64,000 nt of DNA from Tepidisphaeraceae bacterium (GTDB taxonomy: Bacteria; Planctomycetota; Phycisphaerae; Tepidisphaerales; Tepidisphaeraceae), in NCBI GenBank assembly GCA_047600945.1, contig JASGKC010000001.1, positions 5,337,209 to 5,401,208 of the forward strand. Reading direction: 5' to 3'. Position 1 is the stretch's first letter. The number at the start of each line of letters is the position of its first letter. Made by a program: the position numbers and the translations under genes. Of the stretch, positions 2,882 to 61,872 are shown piece by piece. The notes under the pieces are model-generated. The model was not told the origin of the DNA and searched no databases. It was given only the letters and a program-made list of their open reading frames with translations.

Positions 2882-5713
2882 TTAGCGGACGCCGTCCTGG
2901 TACATCATTGCGCCGCGACCGGTCAGGGCGTCGAGCGAGAGCTCCGGCGCATCCAGCACGCGATCGATCCGGCTCTTGGTTTCGACCAGGTGCGACCGCG
3001 TCGCGAAGTCGAGCGCGGCCGGCTGCTTCAGGATCTCGGCGATCTGGGCCGCGGTGTCGCGCAGGTTGCCGCGGACCATGCTCTGAAGGTCGGCGTTCAT
3101 GACCGAGCCCGAGGGCAGCTTCGCCATCGCGATCTGCAAGTCGAGCCACTGCTTCTGCAAGTTACGCCGCGTGCTGCTGATCATCGGTTGCGCGTCGGTG
3201 AACTTCTTGCCGGCCGCCAGCGGTTCGAGCTTGCCCCATACGAGTTCCTTCGTCTTTGTGAGCAGTTCCGCCGCTGTGAACTTGTTGGTGGCGTCGGACT
3301 TCAACTCGGCGTCGTAGACGCGCTGCAAGACGACCGGGTTGTTGATCATCAGCAGCACCGAGCTTTGCATGCTGAGCTGAAGCTGGTGGGCCGGGAAGTC
3401 GATCCGCGACGCCGGCCAGTCCTCGCCGTTGCTGAGGCGCGTAGCGACCAGTCGATTGAACATCTCAGGACTGACCTTGAGGAAGTCGTCGCTCAGCACG
3501 GTCTTGCCGAGCAGTTCGAGCGCGGCCCGCTGCTGATCGGGTGGGACGATCGTCAGCGGAGCGGTCGCGTCCTTGTCGGCAGCGCGGTTGCGGTTGAAGT
3601 ACTGCCCGCCCACGATGCGGGCCGCGTATTGCAGGCCCTGCAACTTGTTGTACGCCAGGCCGAGGAACGCCGAGCGCAGAAAGTGCTGCGGCTCGTCGCT
3701 GCGGACGGCCCACTTGTCGAAGTCGGTCAGTAACTCGTCGGCGAACATCGTGCCGTTGTTGGCCCAGCCGACGATGTCGCTGCTCATGTCCCAGCGGTTG
3801 CTGAGCGGGTCGGGGCTGCTCAGGCCCGCGACGTCTTCATCCGTCGCGAAGGCCAAACCCGGCTCGTTGCAGCGCGACGCGATTTCCGCCAGACCCTTCT
3901 TCGCCTCGGCGGCACCGTCGAACTGCTTGTAGCCGTACTGAATCGCCCAGAAGTCATACGGCCCGATGACCGGCGACGTGATCTGCTTCACGTTCTCGAT
4001 CCGATCGCCCGGGAAGAGCAGCGGCGCGTTGTAGTCCATCACGCTGGCGAAGGTCGGCTCGTTGCCGGTGTCGCGACGCTTCTTGATCTCGTCAGGGCTC
4101 AGCCACGCCGACGCCTTGAAGTTGTGCCGCAAGCCCAGCGTATGGCCGAGCTCGTGCGTGGTGATCATCTTGATCATCTGGCCCAGCAGGCGCTCGGGCA
4201 CCTTGCGATCGCCCGCCTTGGCCTGCATGAGACTGATGAGGTTCATCTGCTGCCGCACGCCCTGGGCGTAATCACAGGCGGCCGGGTGCGAGAGCGGGCG
4301 GCGCGCCTTGGCATCGACCATGAGCTGGCTGTCGTTGACGATCAGTTCCAGATGCCCGCGGCCCAGCTCGGCGTGCTCGCGCATTGCGCTCGCGGTCTGC
4401 TTCACGTCATCCAGCGACATGCCCATCGGGATGAAGTCCGGGTGCTGTTCGAGGAAGCCGACGACTTCCGGGCCCATCTGCGTGGCCAGCGCTTGCGGGC
4501 CGAACGTCAGGGCGAAATCCTGCTCGAAGCCGCGGACCATCGAGTCGTCGAAGATGATGTCGGCGTCGAGGATCTCGCCCGTGCGCGGGTCGGCCCGGCT
4601 CGGCCCCATCGCGAAGCCGCGGCCGGTCACGATCCAGCGGAAGAAGTTGTAGCGGGCATCTTCCGGATCGACATTCGCGAACTCGTTGTCGTCGGTCTGC
4701 TGCTGCACGACGATCGCGCCGGTGATGCCCACCTGCTCGAACGCCTTGTTCCATTCAAGGATGCCGTCAGCCACGTAGCGGCGCCATTGGAGCGGCACGG
4801 TCTTTTCGATCACGAAGGTGATCGGCTTCTCGGGGGGGCTCACCTCAAGCTGCGGGTCCTTCTTCTTCAAGTTCCAGCGATTGGCATAACGGATGAGCGT
4901 TTCGCGTTCGCTGTAGGGCGTGTTCCAGTCTTCGCGCACGGTGTCGAAGTAGCCGACACGTTCATCGAGCGCGCGGGGCGTGAAATCGCTCTGACGCAGA
5001 TCGGGCAGCAGACGCAGCGAGTAGCCGACACCCATCGTCGTACCCACGCCGCCGCGGCCGGCCATCGCGACGTCGACGTCGACGAGCACGTTTTCCGGGA
5101 AGACCTTGGCCTTGCTGTAGGTGGTGAGGTCGGGACGGGGCAGCATGCCCGGCGTCGCCATTTCACCGGCGGCGGCGTCGAGCAGCGCGTCGCCGAGGTC
5201 GACGACCGGGTCGTTGCCGGCCTTGCACAAAATCGGCAGCACCGCGATGAAACTACCCGTGTAGGTCGATTCGACCGCACCGGTGACGGCCTTGCCGGGC
5301 GTCTGCTTCTGACGCACGTCGGGCACGCTGATGAGCAGCGTGTTTCCGACCTGCTGGAAGCGCACGAGCGCCGTGCCGGCCGGGTAACCCATGTTCGGGC
5401 CGCGCGAGACGCTCATGGCCAGCAGCAGGTCGCGGCCGATGAGGCCCTTCGGAATGACGGCGAGCAACCGGTTGGCGTTCTTCTCGTCAGGCTTGCCGAC
5501 GTAGAGCGTGAGCATCGAATCGCCGTCGGTGCTGGTCACCTTGCGCAGGCCTTTGACAAGGTCCTCCAGTTTCGGCCCGGTTTCTTTCTGTTCGGCGGCG
5601 GCTTCCTCCGCGCGTGCCACGCTCGGCACACCGAACGACCCGGCCAGCAGGCCACACGCCACCAACGTCGCGCCCGTGGCGCACCAGAGCTTCTTCGACC
5701 ATCGCGTTGCCAT
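2882..5713 (-). CDS. Secreted zinc-dependent metalloprotease (HEXXH family, DUF4953-like)
   Basis: HELGHTLGLRHNF zinc-binding motif; N-terminal signal peptide MATRWSKKLWCATGATLVACGLLAGSFGVPSVARA; start moved to ATG at 5713 because upstream ORF extension is compositional junk. Confidence 0.7.
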   Translation of the reverse strand: MATRWSKKLWCATGATLVACGLLAGSFGVPSVARAEEAAAEQKETGPKLEDLVKGLRKVTSTDGDSMLTLYVGKPDEKNANRLLAVIPKGLIGRDLLLAMSVSRGPNMGYPAGTALVRFQQVGNTLLISVPDVRQKQTPGKAVTGAVESTYTGSFIAVLPILCKAGNDPVVDLGDALLDAAAGEMATPGMLPRPDLTTYSKAKVFPENVLVDVDVAMAGRGGVGTTMGVGYSLRLLPDLRQSDFTPRALDERVGYFDTVREDWNTPYSERETLIRYANRWNLKKKDPQLEVSPPEKPITFVIEKTVPLQWRRYVADGILEWNKAFEQVGITGAIVVQQQTDDNEFANVDPEDARYNFFRWIVTGRGFAMGPSRADPRTGEILDADIIFDDSMVRGFEQDFALTFGPQALATQMGPEVVGFLEQHPDFIPMGMSLDDVKQTASAMREHAELGRGHLELIVNDSQLMVDAKARRPLSHPAACDYAQGVRQQMNLISLMQAKAGDRKVPERLLGQMIKMITTHELGHTLGLRHNFKASAWLSPDEIKKRRDTGNEPTFASVMDYNAPLLFPGDRIENVKQITSPVIGPYDFWAIQYGYKQFDGAAEAKKGLAEIASRCNEPGLAFATDEDVAGLSSPDPLSNRWDMSSDIVGWANNGTMFADELLTDFDKWAVRSDEPQHFLRSAFLGLAYNKLQGLQYAARIVGGQYFNRNRAADKDATAPLTIVPPDQQRAALELLGKTVLSDDFLKVSPEMFNRLVATRLSNGEDWPASRIDFPAHQLQLSMQSSVLLMINNPVVLQRVYDAELKSDATNKFTAAELLTKTKELVWGKLEPLAAGKKFTDAQPMISSTRRNLQKQWLDLQIAMAKLPSGSVMNADLQSMVRGNLRDTAAQIAEILKQPAALDFATRSHLVETKSRIDRVLDAPELSLDALTGRGAMMYQDGVR

Positions 5714-26406: not shown

Positions 26407-26568
26407 AATCGACGGCGTGTCCGACCTCGTAGCACGAGCGTCCCGATCATGCCTCTGTTTCTGTTCATCGCGGCGGCGAACTTCGTGGCACGGCCGTCCC
26501 GGCCGTGAAGATCACGAGCGAGACGCCCATGCCACGCCGCTTGATCGCACCTGAGTTGCTGAATCCAC

Positions 26569-54199: not shown

Positions 54200-54300
54200 T
54201 CGCTTGATTTCGAATTGCGACATGCGAATTTCGAATTGAGTTCGCAGACGCATCGCTCGTTCCTCAATTCGCAATTCGAAATCCGCAATTCGCAATGCCC
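54190..54300. repeat. AT-rich tandem/inverted repeat island (TTCGAATT / AATTCGCAAT units); probable terminator
   Basis: CGAATTTCGAATTGAG...CTCAATTCGCAATTCGAAATCCGCAATTCGCAAT; related AATCGCAAAT units at 13355-13400. Confidence 0.4.
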
Positions 54301-54801
54301 CGTCGTTCACTCCCTGTCGTCCCCTGGTATAGCGAAGGCCTCTCCTTCACTTGCACCCAGTGCGGCAACTGCTGCACGGGCGGGCCGGGGTATGTGTGGA
54401 TGAGCGATGACGAAGTTCGCATCCTCGCCGACCACCTGAAGCTCAGCGTCGAAGAGACCGTGAAAAAGCATTGCCGGCTCATCAACGGCCGGCTCAGCCT
54501 GAAGGAACGCAAGACGCCCAAGGGCCTGTACGACTGCGTCTTCCTGATCGACCTGCCGACCACCGACGGCTCCGTGAAACGCGGCTGCGGCATCTACCCG
54601 GTGCGACCGCTCCAGTGCCGGACTTGGCCCTTCTGGGATGGGAACCTCGAAACCCGCGAGAGCTGGCAACGCGCCAAGCGCACCTGTCCCGGCCTCGACA
54701 AGGGCAAGCCGTTCACGGTCGAGCAGATCATCGCCCTGCGCGATGCCGAGGTCTGGCCCGGCACCGAGCAGACGCCCACGTCGGCGAAAACGAAAGCATG
54801 A
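54295..54801 (+). CDS. YkgJ family cysteine-cluster protein (UPF0153)
   Basis: CTQCGNCCTGGPG and CPGL Cys cluster typical of the YkgJ/FliB-like family. Confidence 0.75.
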   Translation: MPRRSLPVVPWYSEGLSFTCTQCGNCCTGGPGYVWMSDDEVRILADHLKLSVEETVKKHCRLINGRLSLKERKTPKGLYDCVFLIDLPTTDGSVKRGCGIYPVRPLQCRTWPFWDGNLETRESWQRAKRTCPGLDKGKPFTVEQIIALRDAEVWPGTEQTPTSAKTKA

Positions 54802-54967
54802 TTCGACGTGACTCGGCGCGTTCGGCATAATCGCGTGACATGCCCGGGGAACGTCCAGTGTCGCCGCTCGTGCTGGCCGAGTTGTATGACTCCGCCGATG
54901 CGTCGTTCCTGACGCGACTCCTCACGCCTCGACTCGATTTGCGTCCGATGGTCGGCCTGATCGAGCG

Positions 54968-56523
54968 ATGGAAGAAAGACAACAGCGCCTGGCGCGCCAG
55001 CTCAAGCTGTCGTACGCAACACGACCGCCTGCCGCGCAGCGCGAGCCGCTGATCTTCAAGCGGCTCTTCAAGCACGCCGACGCCACCGGCGATCACGAGT
55101 TGATGGCCGCGTTCCTTGTCGCGACGGATCGGCTGATCCGCCGCAAGCGTCGTAAACGCGTCCGCTGGGCGCAGGGAACGCTCGAAACGAGCGAAGTCCT
55201 CCGCGTCGCTTCGAACTACAACGGCCTGTTCCGATCGAACGCGACGAATCACTATGTCCGCCGTCGCGCGTGGCGGCACTTCCGTCGGCTGGGCTTTCGC
55301 GACCCGGCCACCTATCGCACGCACGTCGCCGCGGCTCTGGCACGCTACGACGATGCCGACGTCCGCGCCGGCGAGAACCTGCTCGACTGCTGGGGCCTGA
55401 TGCACGCCTGCTTCGGCAAGAGCAAGGAGATCGCCTTCGACGCCCGGCACACGAACATCGCGCCCAGTGGCGTCTTCGCGAACCTGTCGGCCGCACCGAT
55501 GTTCGAGCGGCACTGGGCCGACGCGGCCGGGCTGCCTGTACTGCTCGACCTGCTCCTGGCCGCACGATGCAGGCCCGTGCGCGTGTGGGCCATCCAACTG
55601 CTGAAGCGTCTGCACAAGCCGGCGCTGTGCGCGTCGATGCGACCCTGATCGTGAAACTGATCGACCACGAAGACGCCGATGTCGCTGCGTTCGCGGCCGA
55701 GTTGTTGGCGGACGCCGATGCGGTGTCGTCGTTCCCGATCCCGACGTGGCTCGCCCTGCTCGCCACCCGCAACCCGGCCGTCACGGCGACGGTCGCTGAC
55801 GCCTTCCGCAAGCACGTCGATTTCGCCCGCGTGACCGCGACGCAGGCCATCGAACTGGCGCTGCGTGCACCGGTGCCGGTCGCGGCGCTCGGGCTCGACA
55901 TCCTGTTGACGCGCGAGTTTCGCACACCGGCCGATCGTGCGTTGCTTGCGCGGTTGAGCGCAGCCGAGTGTGCCGCACTCGCCGATGCCATCGCCCGCTT
56001 CGCCCTGCCCAAGCTGAACCGTCCGGGCGGATACGACATCGACGACCTCACAGGCTTCTTCGACAGCCGATTCCGGACGATGCGCAGCGGCGCCTTCGCT
56101 GCACTCACCCCACAATCGCCGGCCGACACCGATCCGGCCTTCTGGTCTCGGCTTTTCGAATCGCCTTACGACGACGTGCGCACTGAGCTCGTCGCGCGGT
56201 TGAAGACGCGATCGAACTTGCCAGGCGCGTCGAGCGATTCACTCGCGTCGCTCTGGACCAACGTGCTGCTGAGCATCCACCGAGGTGGCCGGGCGAAGCT
56301 GTCGGCGCTACGCCAGATCAGCGATCACATCCGCGCGAACCCGTCGACCACACGCATCCTTCTGCCGGTGCTGGCGATCGCGATCCGCTCGGTGCGCGCC
56401 CCCGAAGCCCGGCACGGCCTGGCCGCGATCGTGGCCGCGACGCAGCGCGAGCCGTCGCTGCTGACCCGCGTGGCCGAGGCGTTTCCCGACCTGCAACTCG
56501 ACGCCACCGTGGGGGTGCCATGA
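54968..56523 (+). CDS. Hypothetical alpha-helical (HEAT-like repeat) protein; frame interrupted by an apparent -1 shift near 55620-55650
   Basis: Two consecutive sense-looking frames (54968-55648 and 55650-56523); downstream half has HEAT-like helical repeats; stop overlaps next start (ATGA at 56520). Confidence 0.45.
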
Positions 56524-58226
56524 TCGAGACGTTCGTTTATGCCGGATCGAGCGGCGTGGTCGATCGCCCCGAGGGCCGATCGATCCGGCTGGCGCCAAAC
56601 CTCGTGCGCGAGCCGGTCGCGTTCGACGCGGAGTTGCGCCATCCGCTTCGTTTTCGCGAAGCGATTAGCGCGTTGCACGACGTTGTGGTGAGCGATCTCC
56701 GCTTCAAGAAGAAGGACAAGACGGCATACAAGGCGTGGCTGAAGGAGCAGGCGAATCGTGACGCCGCCGTCCGACGCGACGCCTGGCGGGCGGCCAACGA
56801 ACAACTGCAAGCCGCCCACGCAACGCCGTTGCCGCCGGAGTTCGAGGCCGACTACACCGCCGCCCGCAAGCTGTACTGGTCGGCCCGCGACCAGTACAGC
56901 GATTACCTCCGCAAGCACGACCCCGCGCTCTGGCGCACGCTGATGCCGAGCGACCCAGTCATTACCGTCGCGAATGACGTCGTGTTCTTCGAGTGCTTCT
57001 CGAAGGACGAATCCGCCTACGGCTGCCTCTACACGCGCCGCGCCGACGCGTTCGGCCCCAGCAGCACGTTGCAGGTCGGCACCACGAACGTCGACTATTC
57101 CGAAGCGCTGTACGAGCAGTTCCAGACGCTGCGGACGTATCGCCCGACGAAGTTCAGCCTCGACCCGGAAGGTTTTTCGGTTCAGCGTGCAGCGCAGGAA
57201 ACGCCGGCGCATCGCGAAGAAAAGATCGACTTGCCCAACACGTGGCTGAGCGGCTTCATGAAGCTGCAAGCCGCCATGACGATGCCGACGACGCGCGTGC
57301 CGCTGTCGCGCGAGTGCGTCTATTCGCTGCTGGCGTTTTTGAAGCGGAATATCGCCAAGCGCAGCCCGCGGGCGCTTCGGTTCGAACTCGATCCGGGCAA
57401 GCCGGCCCGACTGGTGCTGGAGCCGTGGGAGAAGGCATTCCAAGTCGTCGGCCCCGCGTACGCCGGCCCGCGCACGCCGGCGATTCGCGTGTGGGGCACG
57501 CGCCGGCTGCTCGTGCTGGCGCGGCTGCTGCCGCTGGCGGAATCGATCGAAGTGCACTTGCTCGCGACGGGCCTGCCCAGCTTCTGGGTGGTTCGCATGG
57601 GTGAGATGACGTTCGTGCTGGGCCTGTCGGGCTGGACGACGAACGACTGGTCGCGTGGCTCGGCGCTCGACCTGCTTGAACCGCCCCGCGCGATCAGCCG
57701 GGAACTCGTCGGGGCGACCGTGCGGTCGCTGAAGACACGTCGCTCGGCCACGCTCGCCGAGGTACAGGCCGACATGGGCGAGGGCGATCCGTTCCTCGTC
57801 GGCCAGGCGCTGCGTCACCTGGCCGAGATGGGACAGGTCGTGTTCGACCTGACGACCGGCGTCTATCGCTACCGGCAGATTCTCACCGTGCCCGAGGCCG
57901 AGACGCTGCTGGCGCACGAGAGCGAGGAAGTCGCCGCGGCGCGGAAGCTGGTCGCGGAGCGGCGGTTTGAGCTGGTCGATCGCCAGGACGGGCCGAGCCT
58001 GTCGCGGGTAATCATCGGAAAGGTCGAAAGCACGCCGGTGGAGATCCTGGTCGATCCGGACGACCGCATCCGGCGCGGCAAGTGCCTGTGCAGTTATTTC
58101 AAGCAGTACGGTTTGAGGAACGGCCCGTGTCGTCACATGATCGCCCTGCGTTGGGGCCTGAGCGTGACGGGCTTGGCGGCATTGCAGCAAAGCGAAGCGT
58201 TCAATCGAATGCTGGGTCGAAGTTGA
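56520..58226 (+). CDS. SWIM zinc-finger domain protein
   Basis: C-terminal CxC...CxH SWIM motif RGKCLCSYFKQYGLRNGPCRHMIALRWGL; 568 aa. Confidence 0.7.
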   Translation: MIETFVYAGSSGVVDRPEGRSIRLAPNLVREPVAFDAELRHPLRFREAISALHDVVVSDLRFKKKDKTAYKAWLKEQANRDAAVRRDAWRAANEQLQAAHATPLPPEFEADYTAARKLYWSARDQYSDYLRKHDPALWRTLMPSDPVITVANDVVFFECFSKDESAYGCLYTRRADAFGPSSTLQVGTTNVDYSEALYEQFQTLRTYRPTKFSLDPEGFSVQRAAQETPAHREEKIDLPNTWLSGFMKLQAAMTMPTTRVPLSRECVYSLLAFLKRNIAKRSPRALRFELDPGKPARLVLEPWEKAFQVVGPAYAGPRTPAIRVWGTRRLLVLARLLPLAESIEVHLLATGLPSFWVVRMGEMTFVLGLSGWTTNDWSRGSALDLLEPPRAISRELVGATVRSLKTRRSATLAEVQADMGEGDPFLVGQALRHLAEMGQVVFDLTTGVYRYRQILTVPEAETLLAHESEEVAAARKLVAERRFELVDRQDGPSLSRVIIGKVESTPVEILVDPDDRIRRGKCLCSYFKQYGLRNGPCRHMIALRWGLSVTGLAALQQSEAFNRMLGRS

Positions 58227-58234
58227 GAAGGAAA

Positions 58235-58535
58235 GGAGCCTCGAATCCGCCGACGGTCGGCATGCTGAAGCGGGGTGGTGCGAGCGTAAGCCCGCACGCG
58301 TCCTGAGACTCTCTCCGCGATGTTCCGTCGCGGGTGCAGCTTGCCTCCCCATTGCGTCCCCAAGGCCGTTGTTCGTTCGGGCACCGTGCGAGCTATCGCA
58401 GGTGCCCATGAACAACCCAAGGGTTGCCCCTGCGATAGCTCGCACGGTGCCCATGGTGAACGACCTTGGTCCGAAGGTTGAAGTCAGGATGGCCGCGTGG
58501 ATGCGGGCCGATCCGTCGGTGGATTCGATGTTCCT
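58235..58535 (+). ncRNA. Candidate retron-type non-coding RNA (msr/msd-like): a1/a2 inverted repeats flanking a long hairpin
   Basis: a1 AGGAGCCTCGAATCCGCCGACGG (58235-58257) vs a2 CCGTCGGTGGATTCGATGTTCCT (58513-58535): 20/23 complementary, 2 of 3 mismatches G-U compatible; internal perfect 24-bp stem GGGCACCGTGCGAGCTATCGCAGG (58379-58402) / CCTGCGATAGCTCGCACGGTGCCC (58429-58452). Confidence 0.45.
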
Positions 58536-58544
58536 TTAAGGCCC

Positions 58545-60226
58545 GTGCCGAACGATGACTTCAACAACCTCGTCGCCCTGGTGTCGGCCGTGTTCGGGGT
58601 CGGCGCCGTCATTCTCATTGCAACCGCGTTCCGCAAGCGCCAGCAGCCGCCGAAGCCGCAGCACCCCATCGGAGGCGATCAGTCGGGGCGTCAACTCCGG
58701 TCGATAGCGCCGCCCGCGGGTCGACCCGTCGTCGTCGTTCCGCCGCGCCGGCCAATCCAGCGCATCGAGAAGACGCTCGACCTCACCGCCGCGCAGTTCG
58801 CGCCACTAACCGACGCGCAGGTCCGCGAGCGGGCGAGCACCACGCCGTTCACCGGCTTTTTCACGTTCGGCCGGCGCGATCGCATTCCGTCGCCGGCCGA
58901 CCCGCGCACGAAGCTGATCGACCAGGCAATGGTCGGCCACGGCCTCGTGACGGCCGACGAACTCGTCCGCATCCACGAGATCGGCCAGAAGTACGACGAA
59001 CTCCGGCCCGACTACTCGACCGTACATGCAGTCGCGCAGCAAGCCGTTGAAGCAGATCGCGAGGCCCGCGCGAGATCTGCGCCGAGAAGAAGCTCGCCGC
59101 CGAGCAGCGCAAGCGCGAGCATGCCGAGCGCGTCGCCCGGAATCGCGCAACCGACATCATCCACCTCGGTCGAGGCGTGTCGGCCGGCCTTGCCGACCGC
59201 ACGAGCGACTTCGATAAGCTGCGTGCCGCCGGCCTGCCCGAACTGTCGACGCCCGCCGACCTCGCCGCCGCGTTCGGCCTCCCGATCCCGCGTCTGCGCT
59301 TCCTCGCCTACCACGCCGAGGCCAGCACCGTCAGCCACTACGTGCAGTTCATGGTGCCTAAGAAAAGCGGCGGCGAGCGCCTGCTCAGCGCGCCGCACAA
59401 GCACTTGGCCACGGCGCAGCAGTGGGTGCTTGATGCAATCCTCCGCAAGCTGCCCGTCCACGACGCCGCGCACGGCTTTGTCAACGGTCGATCGATCCTC
59501 ACGAACGCCAAGCCGCACGTCGGCCGCGCGGTCGTCGTCAACTGCGACCTCACCGACTTCTTCCCGTCGATCACCGTGCATCGCGTGATCGGCTTCTTCC
59601 GCCACCTCGGCTACTCGCCGGCCGTCGCGACGGTCTTGGCGCTGCTCGTCACCGAGTGCCCGCGCCGCAAAGCGCGCTTCGCGGGCAAGACCTGGCACAT
59701 CGCGGTCGGCCCGCGCGGGCTGCCGCAAGGCGCGTGCACCAGCCCGGCACTGTCGAACCTGATCGCACGCCGGCTCGACTCGCGCCTCAGCGGCATCACG
59801 CGCAAGCTCGGCTGGACCTACACGCGCTACGCCGACGACCTGACGTTCTCCTGCAACACAGCCACGCCCTCGGTCGGCTACCTGCTGGCGCGCGTCCGGC
59901 ACATCACCGGCGACGAAGGCTTTGCGATCAATGAGAAGAAGACGCGTGTCCTCAAGCGATCGGCGCGACAGGCGGTCACGGGCATCGTCGTGAACGTCGA
60001 GCCGAGCGTGCCGCGGAAGACGCGGCGCCGGCTCCGGGCGATCCTGCATCACGCGAAACACGAAGGCCTTGCCACCCAGCAGCGACCGGGTCGTGCGAAC
60101 ATCACCGGCTGGGCGAACGGCATGACCGGCTTCATCGCGATGGTGAATCCACGGCACGCGCTACCGTTACGCATGGCGCTCGATGCGGTGAAGTCGGATG
60201 ACCGATCCGACGGCCATGTCCCATAG
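58545..60226 (+). CDS. Retron-type reverse transcriptase with ~175-aa N-terminal extension containing a TM helix; frame interrupted by an apparent -1 shift near 59050-59085
   Basis: RT motifs: FMVPKKSGGERLL (motif 1), NCDLTDFFPSIT (2), LPQGACTSPALSNL (4), YTRYADDLTF (YxDD, 5), QAVTGIVVN (VTG region typical of retron RTs). The upstream frame encodes NLVALVSAVFGVGAVILIATAF TM plus a ~150-aa unknown domain that joins the RT frame as ...EADREARA|REICAEKKLAAEQRK... Confidence 0.7.
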
Positions 60227-60279
60227 CCCCGGCGGAATGCACGTCGAATCGGCCAACAGGGATCGGCCGAATTCCCGGC

Positions 60280-60465
60280 CGGGCCGCGAGTTGTCGGCCG
60301 AACGGAGTGCTGACGTGCGATTTTGAAATCGGGGACATTTTGGGACATTCGGGCCACCCCATTCGGCCGGGGCCGGAGGACGCGCATTCAGGTTGCCAAA
60401 GAGCAGACTGCGACCTCGCATCATGACAAGTGGGTGCGGGTGGCCGTCAAGGAAAATCCGTGGTG
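60280..60465 (+). other. Conserved intergenic element, copy 2 (paralog of 11690-11905), immediately downstream of the RT gene
   Basis: Same ordered blocks as copy 1 (CGGCCGAACGGAGTGCTGACGTG; CGGGGACATTTTGGGACATT; TTGCCAAAGAGCA; ATGACAAGTGGGTGCGGGTGGCCGTCAAGG). Confidence 0.4.
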
Positions 60466-60813
60466 TGAGCATCTGCTCGAGGACTTCCGTAAGTCTGTGG
60501 CATGGGCGTCTCGCCCATGGACTCGCGCAGCGAGCACGCGGCGTGAGCCGCGTTCAGCAGAAGGAGAGCATCAAGGTGCTCGCGATTGCCGGTCGCTGGA
60601 TGGTTGTCTTTTGTTGAATCGAGCTGCGCTCGATGCCGGCTGCGCCGGTCCACGGGCGGGGACGCCCGTGCCACGACACACGTGTGGGGCCCCCGTTGGA
60701 TCGATGTGCAACCCAAACAAGATCAGGCGAGTCCCGTACCCAGGGGACTCGCCTGATGAGAAACCTTCCTCCGCATCGTTCGACGTGAACGAATAGGCTG
60801 TGGGGAACGAAGA

Positions 60814-61503
60814 TTACTTGCGGGCCATCTTGCGGCGGGCGCGGTAGGCGACCACCAGGGCGGCCGGGGCGGCGAACACGGCCGCGGGCAGCGGGACGAC
60901 CGCCGTTTCCACGCCGACGTTCGCGACCTTCGCGTCGATCAGGGCCGTCGATTCCGTGCTGTCGGTGTACGCGCTGACCAGCCCGTCGACTTCGACCTTC
61001 ACATTCTTCCAACCGGCCGGCAGGTTGATCGCGGTGCCGCCGTCCCACTTGCCTTCGAGCGAGCTGTGGGTCGCGGCCGGCAGGCCGTTGTAGGTGAAGT
61101 TCGAGCTGAGGACCTGCATCGTGTCGAGGTTCGTGACACGCAGCTGACCCGAGCTGTCGACCTCACCGCGGCCGAGGATGCTGTAGTCGCCCAGCAGGCT
61201 CGACGTGATGCTCTTGATCACGTGGTTCGGCTTGGCGTTGAGGATGACCGAGAGCGTATCGCCGACCTGCTGGCTGAGCGTCTGGCCCTGCGGGGCGACG
61301 GCGCTGAAGTTCGAGGGGAACAGCGCGAAGCCGTTCGGCAGGCCGATGCCGTCGCTGAACTTGCCAGTCTGGCTCTGGCCTTGCTGATAGTCGAACGTCG
61401 GCTGCGAGCCGCTGGGCGAGGCCCAGTCGACCGGGGCGGCAAAGGCCGAGGTCGAAGCACCGATCACGGCGACGGCGGCAAGAAGCGTGCTGCGGAAACT
61501 CAT
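60814..61503 (-). CDS. PEP-CTERM sorting domain protein
   Basis: Signal peptide MSFRSTLLAAVAVIGASTSAFA; C-terminal VPLPAAVFAAPAALVVAYRARRK PEP-CTERM-like anchor; N-terminus resembles the PEP-CTERM protein at 52137-52958. Confidence 0.65.
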   Translation of the reverse strand: MSFRSTLLAAVAVIGASTSAFAAPVDWASPSGSQPTFDYQQGQSQTGKFSDGIGLPNGFALFPSNFSAVAPQGQTLSQQVGDTLSVILNAKPNHVIKSITSSLLGDYSILGRGEVDSSGQLRVTNLDTMQVLSSNFTYNGLPAATHSSLEGKWDGGTAINLPAGWKNVKVEVDGLVSAYTDSTESTALIDAKVANVGVETAVVPLPAAVFAAPAALVVAYRARRKMARK

Positions 61504-61872
61504 TGCGGTTTCTCCGAAAATCCTGCGAGACAGTGGGTACTGGCCTTCGAACGATTCGGACCCGTGTCCGGTCGTCATTGGCGTGGAGTAACCATGCCAC
61601 GCACTGATGCCCCGTGACGGCGGTTCAAGCTGATTTCAGGCGGGAAACGCGCGACTTCACACGTCCGAATTGCCGTGCGCGCCGGCGCGCAGCGCGTGCG
61701 GTTTATGCAGGGGGCGATAACCAAGTGCGTGGCAAACTGGCGCAACCGATTCGACGGCGCCGTCCATGTCGCGCGATCGGGTCCGCCCTGATGGGTCAAG
61801 CGATCGGACGTGCGAAGAATCCGGCGCGCCGCCAGTCGATCGACCACCACCCTGCTCGAACCCATCCTCCCC

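What the first reader, a model, noticed from the sequence alone, without database searches (positions are those of the whole stretch)
58235..60226. Candidate retron-like module: a1/a2 inverted repeats plus long perfect hairpin directly upstream of a retron-type RT with an unusual N-terminal transmembrane extension
Seen in sequence: (i) a 23-nt inverted repeat pair (58235-57 AGGAGCCTCGAATCCGCCGACGG; 58513-35 CCGTCGGTGGATTCGATGTTCCT; 20/23 complementary, two mismatches G-U compatible) brackets ~255 nt. (ii) Inside it, 58379-58402 and 58429-58452 are exact reverse complements (24-bp stem, 26-nt loop, stem extendable with a bulge). (iii) 10 nt after a2, an ORF opens (GTG 58545) encoding a TM helix (NLVALVSAVFGVGAVILIATAF) and ~150 aa of unknown domain; it continues, after a -1 frame change near 59050-59085, into a reverse transcriptase with PKKSGGERLL, DLTDFFPSI, QGACTSPALSNL, YADD and VTG motifs. 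Established knowledge: retrons are organised as a1-msr-msd-a2 followed by the RT; the msd forms a long stable stem; the VTG motif distinguishes retron RTs from group II intron and DGR RTs; retron RT effector fusions are normally C-terminal or separate genes. Inference: an RT with an N-terminally fused membrane-anchored domain would be an atypical, possibly undescribed retron architecture and a candidate anti-phage or abortive-infection module.
Basis: partly seen in the sequence, partly recalled or inferred. Interest (0 to 1): 0.85.

Follow-up and report, generated by a model that had tools for sequence, protein, structure and literature searches.

The report
Type XIII retron with frameshifted genes
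This is a genuine retron of an already classified kind, type XIII, the family of the classic Myxococcus Mx162 retron; two of its genes carry single-base frameshifts in this assembly, and the one less ordinary feature is a membrane-anchor helix at the start of its reverse transcriptase.

Summary
The "undescribed architecture" reading is mostly not supported. PADLOC profiles identify three consecutive + strand genes as the type XIII retron set of Mestre et al. 2020: HEAT/ARM protein (54968-56523), WH-SWIM protein (56520-58226) and RT_XIII (58545-60226). The msr-msd non-coding RNA lies between SWIM and RT.

The same gene order occurs in at least 60 loci from Planctomycetota and Verrucomicrobiota, and the ncRNA core is found in 75 of 80 loci. 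Covariation supports the structure:
- 91% of cells are paired, against 32-50% when the partners are slid.
- All 18 pairs of the msd stem show changes on both sides.
- a1/a2 complementarity is locus-specific.
- Two opposing G residues (58307 and 58483) are invariant.

Homologous RTs are single ORFs of 520-590 aa, so the N-terminal extension belongs to the RT. A long N-terminus is already known for Mx162-type RTs. In this window the RT (about 59070-59073) and the HEAT/ARM gene (about 55627-55633) each carry a 1-nt deletion, which may be an assembly error or a recent inactivation. The N-terminal transmembrane helix is real and recurs in relatives, alternating with an amphipathic MGLFDWL-type start. 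I found no description of this in the papers searched. Function is inferred, not shown.

The parts
54803..54831 (+). Weak sigma-70-like promoter match just upstream of the HEAT/ARM gene; a possible operon start
   Evidence: TCGACG-17-CATAAT, 9 of 12 positions. It is the only match in 54600-60900 (0.3 expected). This is a consensus match only, and the promoters of this organism may differ.
54968..56523 (+). HEAT/ARM-repeat accessory gene of the type XIII retron, split by a 1-nt deletion at about 55627-55633 (frame 2 up to about 55630, frame 1 after it)
   Evidence: PADLOC HEAT-ARM_XIII: the frame-2 part matches profile positions 49-270 (1.1e-59) and the frame-1 part matches 270-558 (1.7e-82). 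In nearly all related loci that hold the gene (about 60), tblastn gives one continuous match across the junction. Close homologues switch frame at 55627-55633.
56520..58226 (+). Winged-helix/SWIM zinc-finger protein with a DEDE-like acidic motif; the signature associated protein of type XIII and the putative effector. It is intact.
   Evidence: PADLOC SWIM_XIII, 1.5e-176. CxCx12CxH at residues 522-539. D145, D153, E158, D192 and E233 are conserved in 98-100% of 60 homologues. 127 of 131 columns that are at least 95% conserved are kept.
58232..58306 (+). a1, the 5' arm of the terminal duplex of the ncRNA.
   Evidence: In all 43 loci the duplex starts exactly at the conserved junction. Cognate a1/a2 duplexes average -47.8 kcal/mol and non-cognate ones -25.8. 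The inner 7 pairs covary (helix 1).
58307..58307 (+). Predicted branching (priming) G, in the context CTGA|G|AC
   Evidence: Invariant in 43 of 43 sequences and immediately 3' of the a1/a2 stem. The context xAG[A/C]C resembles GAGC of Mx65 and CAGC of Mx162 (PMC6868368). This is a prediction from position and conservation; the 2'-5' branch was not shown.
58314..58334 (+). Conserved msr hairpin (9 bp, loop TTC)
   Evidence: helix 2: 98.2% of cells paired, and 5 of 9 pairs have changes on both sides.
58360..58469 (+). msd stem-loop: lower stem CCAA/TTGG and CGTT/AACG, then the perfect 24-bp upper stem 58379-58402 with 58429-58452 and loop 58403-58428
   Evidence: exact complement; all 18 upper-stem pairs in the consensus have changes on both sides, and the lower stems are 95-100% paired. 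As DNA, the predicted msDNA strand folds at -47.2 kcal/mol, z = -8.5.
58483..58483 (+). Opposing invariant G, the last base before a2; predicted first template position, so that msDNA would begin 5'-CTTC
   Evidence: Invariant in 43 of 43. 'Two opposing G residues' are a stated feature of retron ncRNA (PMC7736814). Its role as template start is inferred.
58545..60226 (+). Type XIII retron reverse transcriptase, about 560 aa if repaired. As sequenced it runs in frame 0 for 58545-59072 and in frame 2 from 59072 to the stop at 60224-60226, with a 1-nt deletion at about 59070-59073 (AGA|ATC).
   Evidence: The repaired protein scores 1.5e-156 on RT_XIII over residues 153-553. Homologues of 520-590 aa are single ORFs reading REARKRIKAEKK where the window has REARAR (frame 0) and ICAEKK (frame 2). 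AlphaFold gives mean pLDDT 87.1, with one long helix (157-203) running across the junction. 151 of 155 conserved columns are kept.
58569..58631 (+). N-terminal transmembrane helix of the RT (residues about 9-29), followed by RKRQQ and a Pro-rich disordered linker
   Evidence: Kyte-Doolittle 19-residue mean 2.58. AlphaFold helix 4-30, then pLDDT below 55 up to about residue 80. About 50 of 120 close homologues have an equivalent helix.
58770..59003 (+). Conserved helical N-terminal domain of the RT (residues about 76-153; LxLDAxQFxPL ... FGRRDRIP ... DPRTxLIDxAMVGxGLxxPEELxxIH); no family match
   Evidence: Invariant residues in alignments A1 and A3. No Pfam match at E up to 10 apart from a chance-level HHH_2 match further downstream. 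Only the closest ~15 of 150 clusters at 50% identity align this far N-terminal.
59354..59962 (+). RT catalytic core (Pfam RVT_1), with NAKPH 59504-59518 and YADD 59828-59839; the VTG triplet follows at 59975-59983
   Evidence: RVT_1, 3.6e-20. N321, A322, H325, Y429, A430, D431, D432 and G480 are invariant and V478 and T479 at least 90% conserved in 68 sequences.

Best explanation
Window 54968-60226 (+ strand) is one type XIII retron, the family of Myxococcus Mx162/Mx65. It is arranged as HEAT/ARM gene, WH-SWIM gene, msr-msd ncRNA, RT gene.

Shown here: the family assignment of all three proteins, the conserved gene order, and a conserved, covarying ncRNA. The ncRNA has a long terminal a1/a2 duplex, two opposing invariant G residues, one msr hairpin and a long msd hairpin.

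Inferred from how studied retrons work:
- The transcript folds so that a1 pairs with a2.
- The RT uses the 2'-OH of G58307 as primer and copies the RNA from G58483 back through the msd hairpin.
- This yields a branched msDNA of roughly 120-135 nt that stays bound to the RT.
- The RT-msDNA complex holds the SWIM/DEDE protein (a transposase-derived, probably DNA-binding or nuclease protein) and the HEAT/ARM scaffold in check until phage infection disturbs the msDNA.
- The effector then stops the infected cell.

The RT's N-terminal extension is part of the RT, not a fused effector. Its first ~30 residues form a single-pass membrane anchor. By the positive-inside rule the short N-terminus lies outside and the RT in the cytoplasm, so the complex would sit at the inner membrane.

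As sequenced, this copy cannot make full-length RT or HEAT/ARM protein, because each gene has a 1-nt deletion. Everything else is intact, so the lesions are either assembly errors or very recent.
For: - Family: RT_XIII 520 bits, with the next profile at 345; SWIM_XIII 1.5e-176 and HEAT-ARM_XIII 1.7e-82 and 1.1e-59; SWIM motif CxCx12CxH and conserved D/D/E/D/E residues; the NAxxH, YADD and VTG positions are invariant or at least 90% conserved.
- Structure: the nearest solved structures are retron RTs Ec86, Eco2, Eco7 and Ec78.
- Synteny: ARM-SWIM-ncRNA-RT in at least 60 of 80 loci from Planctomycetota and Verrucomicrobiota, while the flanking genes are not shared.
- ncRNA: the core 58291-58496 is found in 75 of 80 loci. 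91.0% of cells are paired against 31.7-50.4% when slid, the covariation score is 0.556 against at most 0.171, and 0 of 500 shuffles reach it. All 18 msd pairs change on both sides.
- a1/a2: cognate duplexes -47.8 against non-cognate -25.8 kcal/mol, always starting at the conserved junction. G58307 and G58483 are invariant.
- One RT protein: homologues are single ORFs across the frameshift, and AlphaFold gives pLDDT 87 with a continuous helix over the junction.
- Membrane anchor: Kyte-Doolittle 2.58, with recurrence in homologues.
- No decay beyond the frameshifts: 151 of 155 and 127 of 131 conserved columns are kept.
Against: - No experiment: msDNA, the branch point, the length of the msDNA and any defence phenotype are all untested. 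As far as the searchable papers show, no type XIII retron has a demonstrated function, and Mestre et al. note partly vertical inheritance, which could mean a role other than defence.
- The effector role of the SWIM protein rests on motif resemblance only, and no solved relative exists.
- Two of the three genes are interrupted here, so the element may be dead in this organism.
- I could not align this ncRNA to the published type XIII covariance model or to Mx162/Mx65 themselves. Rfam has no matching family.
- Membrane insertion is predicted from hydropathy and an AlphaFold helix only.
Confidence: 0.88

Rival explanations
1. The two frameshifts are assembly or base-calling errors. In the organism the retron is intact and the RT is a single membrane-anchored protein of about 560 aa.
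For: The window's RT and SWIM proteins keep 151 of 155 and 127 of 131 highly conserved columns, with only conservative changes, and the ncRNA keeps every invariant base and a perfect 24-bp stem. The source is a MAG contig of 5.5 Mb, which suggests long-read assembly. Other related loci whose record names suggest long-read assemblies (one is labelled 'ont') show SWIM genes broken into several frames (L023, L047, L052, L064).
Against: None of the other neighbouring or overlapping ORF pairs I tested in the 64-kb window proved to be a split gene. Both lesions would therefore have fallen by chance into a 5.3-kb operon, about 0.7% for two random errors. That test was not exhaustive. Neither site is a homopolymer.
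Confidence: 0.45
2. The frameshifts are real. This is a recently inactivated type XIII retron, a pseudogenised element that no longer makes RT or HEAT/ARM protein.
For: Two independent 1-nt deletions lie in one operon, while the other genes I tested in the window look intact. NCBI annotates only the 349-aa C-terminal ORF (P0001). Loss of such accessory elements is common (general knowledge).
Against: There is no other sign of relaxed selection. There are no stops or deletions in SWIM or in the ncRNA.
Confidence: 0.45
3. The frame change in the RT is a programmed -1 ribosomal frameshift that regulates how much full-length RT is made.
For: The shift is -1 and lies between two conserved parts of one protein.
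Against: Read directly, 59050-59075 has no X XXY YYZ slippery heptamer. All homologues examined encode the protein in one frame. An unrelated gene of the same operon carries the same kind of lesion. The only Rfam frameshift-element match, at 58844-58923, is at chance level (E 8.7).
Confidence: 0.03
4. The upstream ORF (58545-59588) is a separate small membrane protein, an effector, and the RT starts independently at GTG 59177.
For: That is how the sequence reads and how it is annotated. Some retron types do have separate membrane effectors (PMC7736814).
Against: The frame-0 reading after about 59072 is low-complexity and matches nothing. The RT_XIII profile match extends 58 residues upstream of 59177, across the junction. 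More than 100 homologues are single ORFs with conserved sequence on both sides.
Confidence: 0.03
5. The RT belongs to a non-retron class (group II intron, DGR, Abi or DRT/UG) and the hairpins are unrelated.
For: All these classes share the RVT_1 fold.
Against: The best PADLOC profile is a retron type by 175 bits. The retron-specific NAxxH and VTG motifs are conserved. The PDB ranking puts retron RTs first. A covarying msr-msd RNA lies next to the gene in 75 of 80 loci.
Confidence: 0.01

Closest known systems
Type XIII retrons of Mestre et al. 2020 (RT clade 10): Retron-Mxa1 (Mx162), Retron-Mxa2 (Mx65), Retron-Sau1 (Sa163), Retron-Nex2 (Ne144)
   Same: RT with an extended N-terminus, the NAxxH, YADD and VTG motifs, and a best hit to the RT_XIII profile. 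Associated WH-SWIM protein with CxCx12CxH and a DEDE-like acidic motif, preceded by a HEAT/ARM-repeat gene. ncRNA upstream of the RT with a long a1/a2, a priming G in an xAGC-like context and a long msd hairpin.
   Different: The host is a Tepidisphaeraceae (Planctomycetota) MAG rather than a myxobacterium. The RT starts with a transmembrane helix and carries a conserved ~75-aa helical domain that only the closest sequence clusters share. The acidic-motif spacing is Dx7Dx4Ex33Dx40E, against the published Dx7[D]x4Ex30-32Dx37E. Two genes are frameshifted. I could not compare directly with the Mx162 sequences.
Retron Ec86 (Eco1, type II-A) and other structurally solved retrons (Eco2/Ec67, Eco7/Ec78, Ec83, Eco8)
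   Same: Nearest solved RT structures (E 5.5e-24 by Foldseek, 8e-40 by sequence). The ncRNA logic is the same: a1/a2, branching G, msd hairpin. They are the basis for the inferred model in which msDNA holds an effector in check.
   Different: Different accessory proteins (nucleoside deoxyribosyltransferase-like, Toprim, PtuAB, ATPase and others). Apart from Eco2, which is 596 aa with extensions at both ends, these RTs are about 310-380 aa, and none has the N-terminal domain and long helix seen here. Sequence identity is only 24-32% over the core for all but Eco8 (15-17%).
Retron types with separate membrane accessory proteins (2-TM proteins linked to clade 3 RTs; bitopic NDT proteins of type II) in Mestre et al. 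2020
   Same: A link between a retron and the membrane is not unprecedented.
   Different: There the membrane segment is on the accessory protein. Here it is on the RT itself, at its N-terminus.

Membership tests
Retron (any type) | RT of the retron lineage with the NAxxH motif, the YADD catalytic site and the VTG triplet | tested here: met
   NAKPH, YADD and VTG are present. The residues are invariant, or at least 90% conserved for V and T, in 68 homologues. The top PADLOC and PDB hits are retron RTs.
Retron (any type) | Adjacent ncRNA with terminal inverted repeats a1/a2, a conserved priming G at the inner end of a1 opposite a second G, msr hairpin(s) and a long msd stem-loop | tested here: met
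   covariation in all helices, G58307 and G58483 invariant, locus-specific a1/a2 complementarity.
Retron (any type) | Production of branched msDNA (2'-5' RNA-DNA linkage) | not testable with these tools
   This needs msDNA extraction or RT-DNA sequencing from the organism or from heterologous expression.
Type XIII retron (Mestre 2020) | RT belongs to clade 10 | tested here: met
   RT_XIII profile, 520 bits and E 1.5e-156, which is 175 bits above the next profile. No tree was built with the reference set.
Type XIII retron (Mestre 2020) | Linked cluster-114 protein: winged helix plus C-terminal SWIM Zn finger CxCx12CxH | tested here: met
   SWIM_XIII, 1.5e-176. CLCSYFKQYGLRNGPCRH at residues 522-539. 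The winged-helix part was not tested separately.
Type XIII retron (Mestre 2020) | Central DEDE motif Dx7[D]x4Ex30-32Dx37E in the SWIM protein | tested here: inconclusive
   D145, D153, E158, D192 and E233 are 98-100% conserved in 60 homologues, but the spacing is x7, x4, x33, x40. Equivalence to the published residues was not checked by alignment to the reference proteins.
Type XIII retron (Mestre 2020) | Preceding HEAT/ARM-repeat (often WGR-like) accessory gene; present in many but not all members | tested here: met
   HEAT-ARM_XIII profile positions 49-558 are covered by two frames. The gene is interrupted here.
Type XIII retron (Mestre 2020) | Type XIII-specific consensus ncRNA structure | not tested
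Only general retron features and the priming-G context could be compared.
Anti-phage defence system | Protection against phage on expression | not testable with these tools
   The papers searched report no functional test of any type XIII retron.

The most novel reading that the evidence does not exclude
In the type XIII retrons of Planctomycetota and Verrucomicrobiota the reverse transcriptase itself is targeted to the membrane. The targeting is either by an N-terminal single-pass helix, as here, or by an interchangeable N-terminal amphipathic helix (MGLFDWLxxLFG; from memory it resembles the membrane-binding first helix of PspA/Vipp1). msDNA synthesis and sensing would then take place at the inner membrane, for example where phage DNA enters. 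This would be a feature of retron biology not described so far and a clue to the unknown function of type XIII. The alternation of the two N-terminal types within one bacterial family is what suggests selection for membrane association rather than chance hydrophobicity.
Probability: 0.4. Interest if true: 0.5.

Novelty: new member of a known kind. Interest (0 to 1): 0.3.

Why it matters
The practical result is a correct annotation. A region that GenBank labels only as a 349-aa 'reverse transcriptase family protein' is a complete four-part type XIII retron with two broken genes.

Beyond that, the comparative set assembled here gives a well-supported structure for the ncRNA of this clade: 80 loci, and a 43-sequence structural alignment with a predicted priming G and template start. 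It also identifies intact copies in culturable strains (Singulisphaera acidiphila DSM 18658, Chthoniobacter flavus Ellin428, and Anatilimnocola, Novipirellula and Bremerella isolates) where the function of type XIII retrons could be tested. The papers I searched report no demonstrated function, even though Mx162 was the first retron discovered.

The recurrent membrane-targeting N-terminus on the RT is a small, testable lead.

Tried and rejected
- Rfam scan of 57800-60800 at E up to 10 gave only chance microRNA-type matches on the hairpin and one chance frameshift-element match.
- Pfam on the N-terminal 259 aa at E up to 10 gave nothing usable.
- A PDB sequence search with the SWIM protein gave no hit.
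- The look-up of encoding contigs for the annotated 349-aa RT found it not on record, so I could not learn the source record or the sequencing technology.
- Foldseek against the AlphaFold database was unavailable, so I could not check structurally whether the Mx162 RT shares the N-terminal domain.
- I looked for further frameshifts by GC3-filtered stop-to-stop ORFs and by Pfam scans of 20 neighbouring or overlapping ORFs. All were separate genes with no sign of a domain broken at an ORF boundary, though six had no Pfam match at all. This screen is not exhaustive.
- I tested whether the flanking genes (CxxCxxCC protein 54295-54801, the PEP-CTERM-like protein, the glycosidase) travel with the retron. 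They do not.
- The single-sequence minimum-energy fold pairs the msr region differently from the comparative structure. I rely on the comparative one.
Full report
**1. The observation**

The sequence features are present as described.
- The quoted a1 string sits at 58234-58256, one base earlier than stated. a2 is at 58513-58535. The pairing is 20 Watson-Crick, 2 G-U and 1 mismatch, and it extends to 25 nt (58232-58256 with 58513-58537).
- 58379-58402 and 58429-58452 are exact reverse complements.
- As RNA, 58228-58541 folds at -184.4 kcal/mol, against -126.8 +/- 5.3 for dinucleotide shuffles (z = -10.8).
- A frame-0 ORF opens at GTG 58545. The RT motifs are in frame 2, which is open from 59051.

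**2. What the proteins are**

The 349-aa RT ORF matches Pfam RVT_1 and PADLOC RT_XIII at 1.6e-147. That match starts only at profile position 92 of 469, so part of the protein was missing.

The two genes upstream on the same strand match SWIM_XIII (56520-58226, 1.5e-176) and HEAT-ARM_XIII. Together these are the signature proteins of the type XIII retron of Mestre et al. 2020 (PMC7736814). That type is RT clade 10 and includes the classic myxobacterial retrons Mx162, Mx65, Sa163 and Ne144.

Joining frame 0 (58545-59072) to frame 2 (59072-60223) gives a 560-aa protein. Its RT_XIII match rises to 520 bits (E 1.5e-156) and extends to residue 153, across the junction. The next profiles score 345 bits or less.

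The SWIM protein carries CxCx12CxH at residues 522-539. It also has five acidic residues (D145, D153, E158, D192, E233) that are 98-100% conserved in 60 homologues. Their spacing is close to, but not identical with, the published DEDE motif.

The closest solved structures, by sequence and by fold, are retron RTs (Ec86, Eco2, Eco7/Ec78, Ec83, Eco8). They rank ahead of group II intron, DRT, Abi and DGR RTs. No type XIII component has a solved structure.

**3. One RT protein, broken here**

A database search with the joined protein returned the window's own 349-aa ORF, annotated 'MAG: reverse transcriptase family protein [Tepidisphaeraceae bacterium]' on a 5.5-Mb contig. It also returned more than 100 homologues of 520-590 aa, at 55-72% identity, covering 84-99% of the query.

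In the alignment these homologues read straight through the junction as REARKRIKAEKK. The window has REARAR in frame 0 and ICAEKK in frame 2. That places a 1-nt deletion at about 59070-59073.

AlphaFold on a 68-sequence alignment gives mean pLDDT 87.1. One long helix (residues 157-203) runs over the junction. There is no slippery heptamer at the site.

The HEAT/ARM gene is broken in the same way. Frame 2 (54968 to about 55630) covers profile positions 49-270 and frame 1 covers 270-558. Homologues are continuous there, and the switch lies at 55627-55633.

I screened the rest of the window for split genes. I looked at GC3-rich stop-to-stop ORFs and ran Pfam scans of 20 adjoining ORFs. None proved to be a split gene. 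The RT and SWIM proteins keep 151 of 155 and 127 of 131 of the columns that are at least 95% conserved in relatives. The lesions are therefore either assembly errors or very recent mutations, and I cannot decide between these without reads.

**4. The non-coding RNA**

A scan of species-representative genomes gave 80 loci, almost all from Planctomycetota and Verrucomicrobiota. They include cultured strains such as Singulisphaera acidiphila DSM 18658 and Chthoniobacter flavus Ellin428.
- The order HEAT/ARM, SWIM, RT is kept in at least 60 of them. The genes flanking the window's retron are not shared.
- The stretch between SWIM and RT is conserved at nucleotide level. A single-sequence nhmmer search found it in about 70 loci, and a profile found it in 75 of 80. 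The window's core is 58291-58496.
- A 43-sequence alignment (A2) shows invariant blocks separated by a stem whose two arms differ in every locus yet stay complementary.

RNAalifold predicts 42 pairs, 31 of them with compensatory changes. Counting on that structure gives these figures:

| Measure | Structure as given | Controls |
|---|---|---|
| Cells paired | 91.0% | 31.7-50.4% with partners slid 1-3 columns |
| Covariation score | 0.556 | at most 0.171 when slid |
| Shuffles reaching the observed score | 0 of 500 | n/a |
| msd-stem pairs changed on both sides | 18 of 18 | n/a |

The controls carry the usual caveat for related sequences. The slid-partner control, which keeps relatedness, is nevertheless decisive here.

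The terminal duplex does not align column by column because its sequence is free. Taking 40 nt on each side of the conserved junction, cognate a1/a2 pairs give a mean duplex energy of -47.8 kcal/mol. Non-cognate pairs give -25.8 (5th percentile -37.6). In every locus the duplex begins exactly at the junction.

The junction is CTGA|G...G|TCAG, with both G residues (58307 and 58483) invariant. This is the 'two opposing G' arrangement of retron ncRNAs. The context xAG[A/C]C resembles GAGC of Mx65 and CAGC of Mx162.

Most relatives have a 215-245-nt element. The window and a few relatives (the Tepidisphaeraceae L007 and L014, and L057 from a Planctomycetaceae MAG) have 270-306 nt.

The predicted msDNA strand folds as DNA at -47.2 kcal/mol (z = -8.5). 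Rfam has no matching family.

**5. The N-terminal extension**

The model has four parts:
- a helix at residues 4-30 (Kyte-Doolittle 19-residue mean 2.58 for 9-27), followed by RKRQQ;
- a disordered Pro-rich linker to about residue 80;
- a small helical domain (82-153) with invariant residues, which Pfam does not recognise;
- the long helix 157-203.

Myxococcal type XIII RTs are known to have an extended N-terminus of unknown function (PMC6868368). The extension itself is therefore not new.

In a search of 1.8 billion cluster representatives, most relatives align from about residue 137-190, that is, from the long helix. Only the closest ~15 clusters align from residues 50-113.

The extreme N-terminus comes in two forms:
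- a hydrophobic transmembrane helix, in about 50 of 120 close homologues, 9 of 80 species loci and 7 of 150 distant representatives;
- an amphipathic M(G/S)LFDWLxxLFG start, in about 25 of 120, at least 27 of 80 and 12 of 150.

Both forms occur within Tepidisphaeraceae. I found no mention of this in Mestre et al. 2020, in the 2019 review, or in the 2026 SPIRE survey. That survey already counts 26 type XIII retrons in Planctomycetota. Membrane association is a prediction.

**6. Mechanism**

Shown: the family, the parts, and conservation and covariation of the RNA.

Inferred by analogy with studied retrons: the a1/a2 duplex presents G58307 as primer, the RT copies from G58483 through the msd hairpin, and the msDNA-RT complex restrains the SWIM/DEDE protein and the HEAT/ARM partner until infection.

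The papers searched report no functional test of any type XIII retron. Mestre et al. note that this type tracks host phylogeny more than other types do. A non-defence role cannot be excluded.

**7. Verdict**

The element is a new member of a known, catalogued type that standard tools would annotate. The 'novel architecture' claim shrinks to a membrane-targeting N-terminus on the RT that recurs in this clade and seems undescribed. This copy carries two frameshifts. Interest is modest.

Noticed in passing
L002:5201-5409 and 5480-5684; L027:5080-5293 and 5391-5600: Two tandem copies of the msr-msd ncRNA lie upstream of a single RT gene in these related loci. The window has only one copy.
   Followed up: partly
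L047:3443-3641, L076:3712-3896, L070:3560-3774, L072:3837-4023: In some relatives an ncRNA copy lies between the HEAT/ARM and SWIM genes. In L047 and L076 it is in addition to the copy before the RT. In L070 and L072 it appears to replace that copy. The position of the ncRNA within the operon is therefore not fixed.
   Followed up: partly
P0084 (640 aa homologue), N-terminal ~90 residues: The database protein starts too far upstream and is translated through the ncRNA: 'FVNDLGPRVEV' corresponds to window 58446-58480. This is a mis-called start codon, and it incidentally shows nucleotide conservation of the msd/a2 side.
   Followed up: yes
L023, L047, L052, L064 (SWIM gene): In these MAG loci, whose record names suggest long-read assemblies (one is labelled 'ont'), the SWIM gene is broken into two to three frames. 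Frameshifted retron genes therefore recur in assemblies of this kind, which bears on whether the window's frameshifts are artefacts.
   Followed up: partly
window 60501-60519, 60653-60672 and 26513-26531: Short G+C-rich palindromes of one type (CATGGGCG-TCT-CGCCCATG and variants). Two lie in the 590-nt gene-free stretch downstream of the RT and one lies elsewhere. There are 3 matches against 0.04 expected. They may be REP-like elements or terminators.
   Followed up: partly
window 60814-61578 (- strand): The ORF downstream of the retron ends in ...VPLPAAVFAAPAALVVAYRARRKMARK, which looks like a PEP-CTERM sorting signal. A strong terminator-like hairpin follows at 60757-60722.
   Followed up: no
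window 54295-54801 (+ strand): A CxxCxxCC (PF03692) zinc/iron-chelating domain protein lies immediately upstream of the retron. It is not found next to the retron in any of the 80 related loci, so it is not part of the system.
   Followed up: yes
window 58228-58238 and 58534-58544: a1 begins 5 nt after the SWIM stop codon with AAGGAAAGGAG. The a2 end (TTCCTTTAAGG) lies 7 nt before the RT start GTG. Formation of the a1/a2 duplex would therefore bury the purine-rich stretch just upstream of the RT start, a possible link between RNA folding and RT translation.
   Followed up: no
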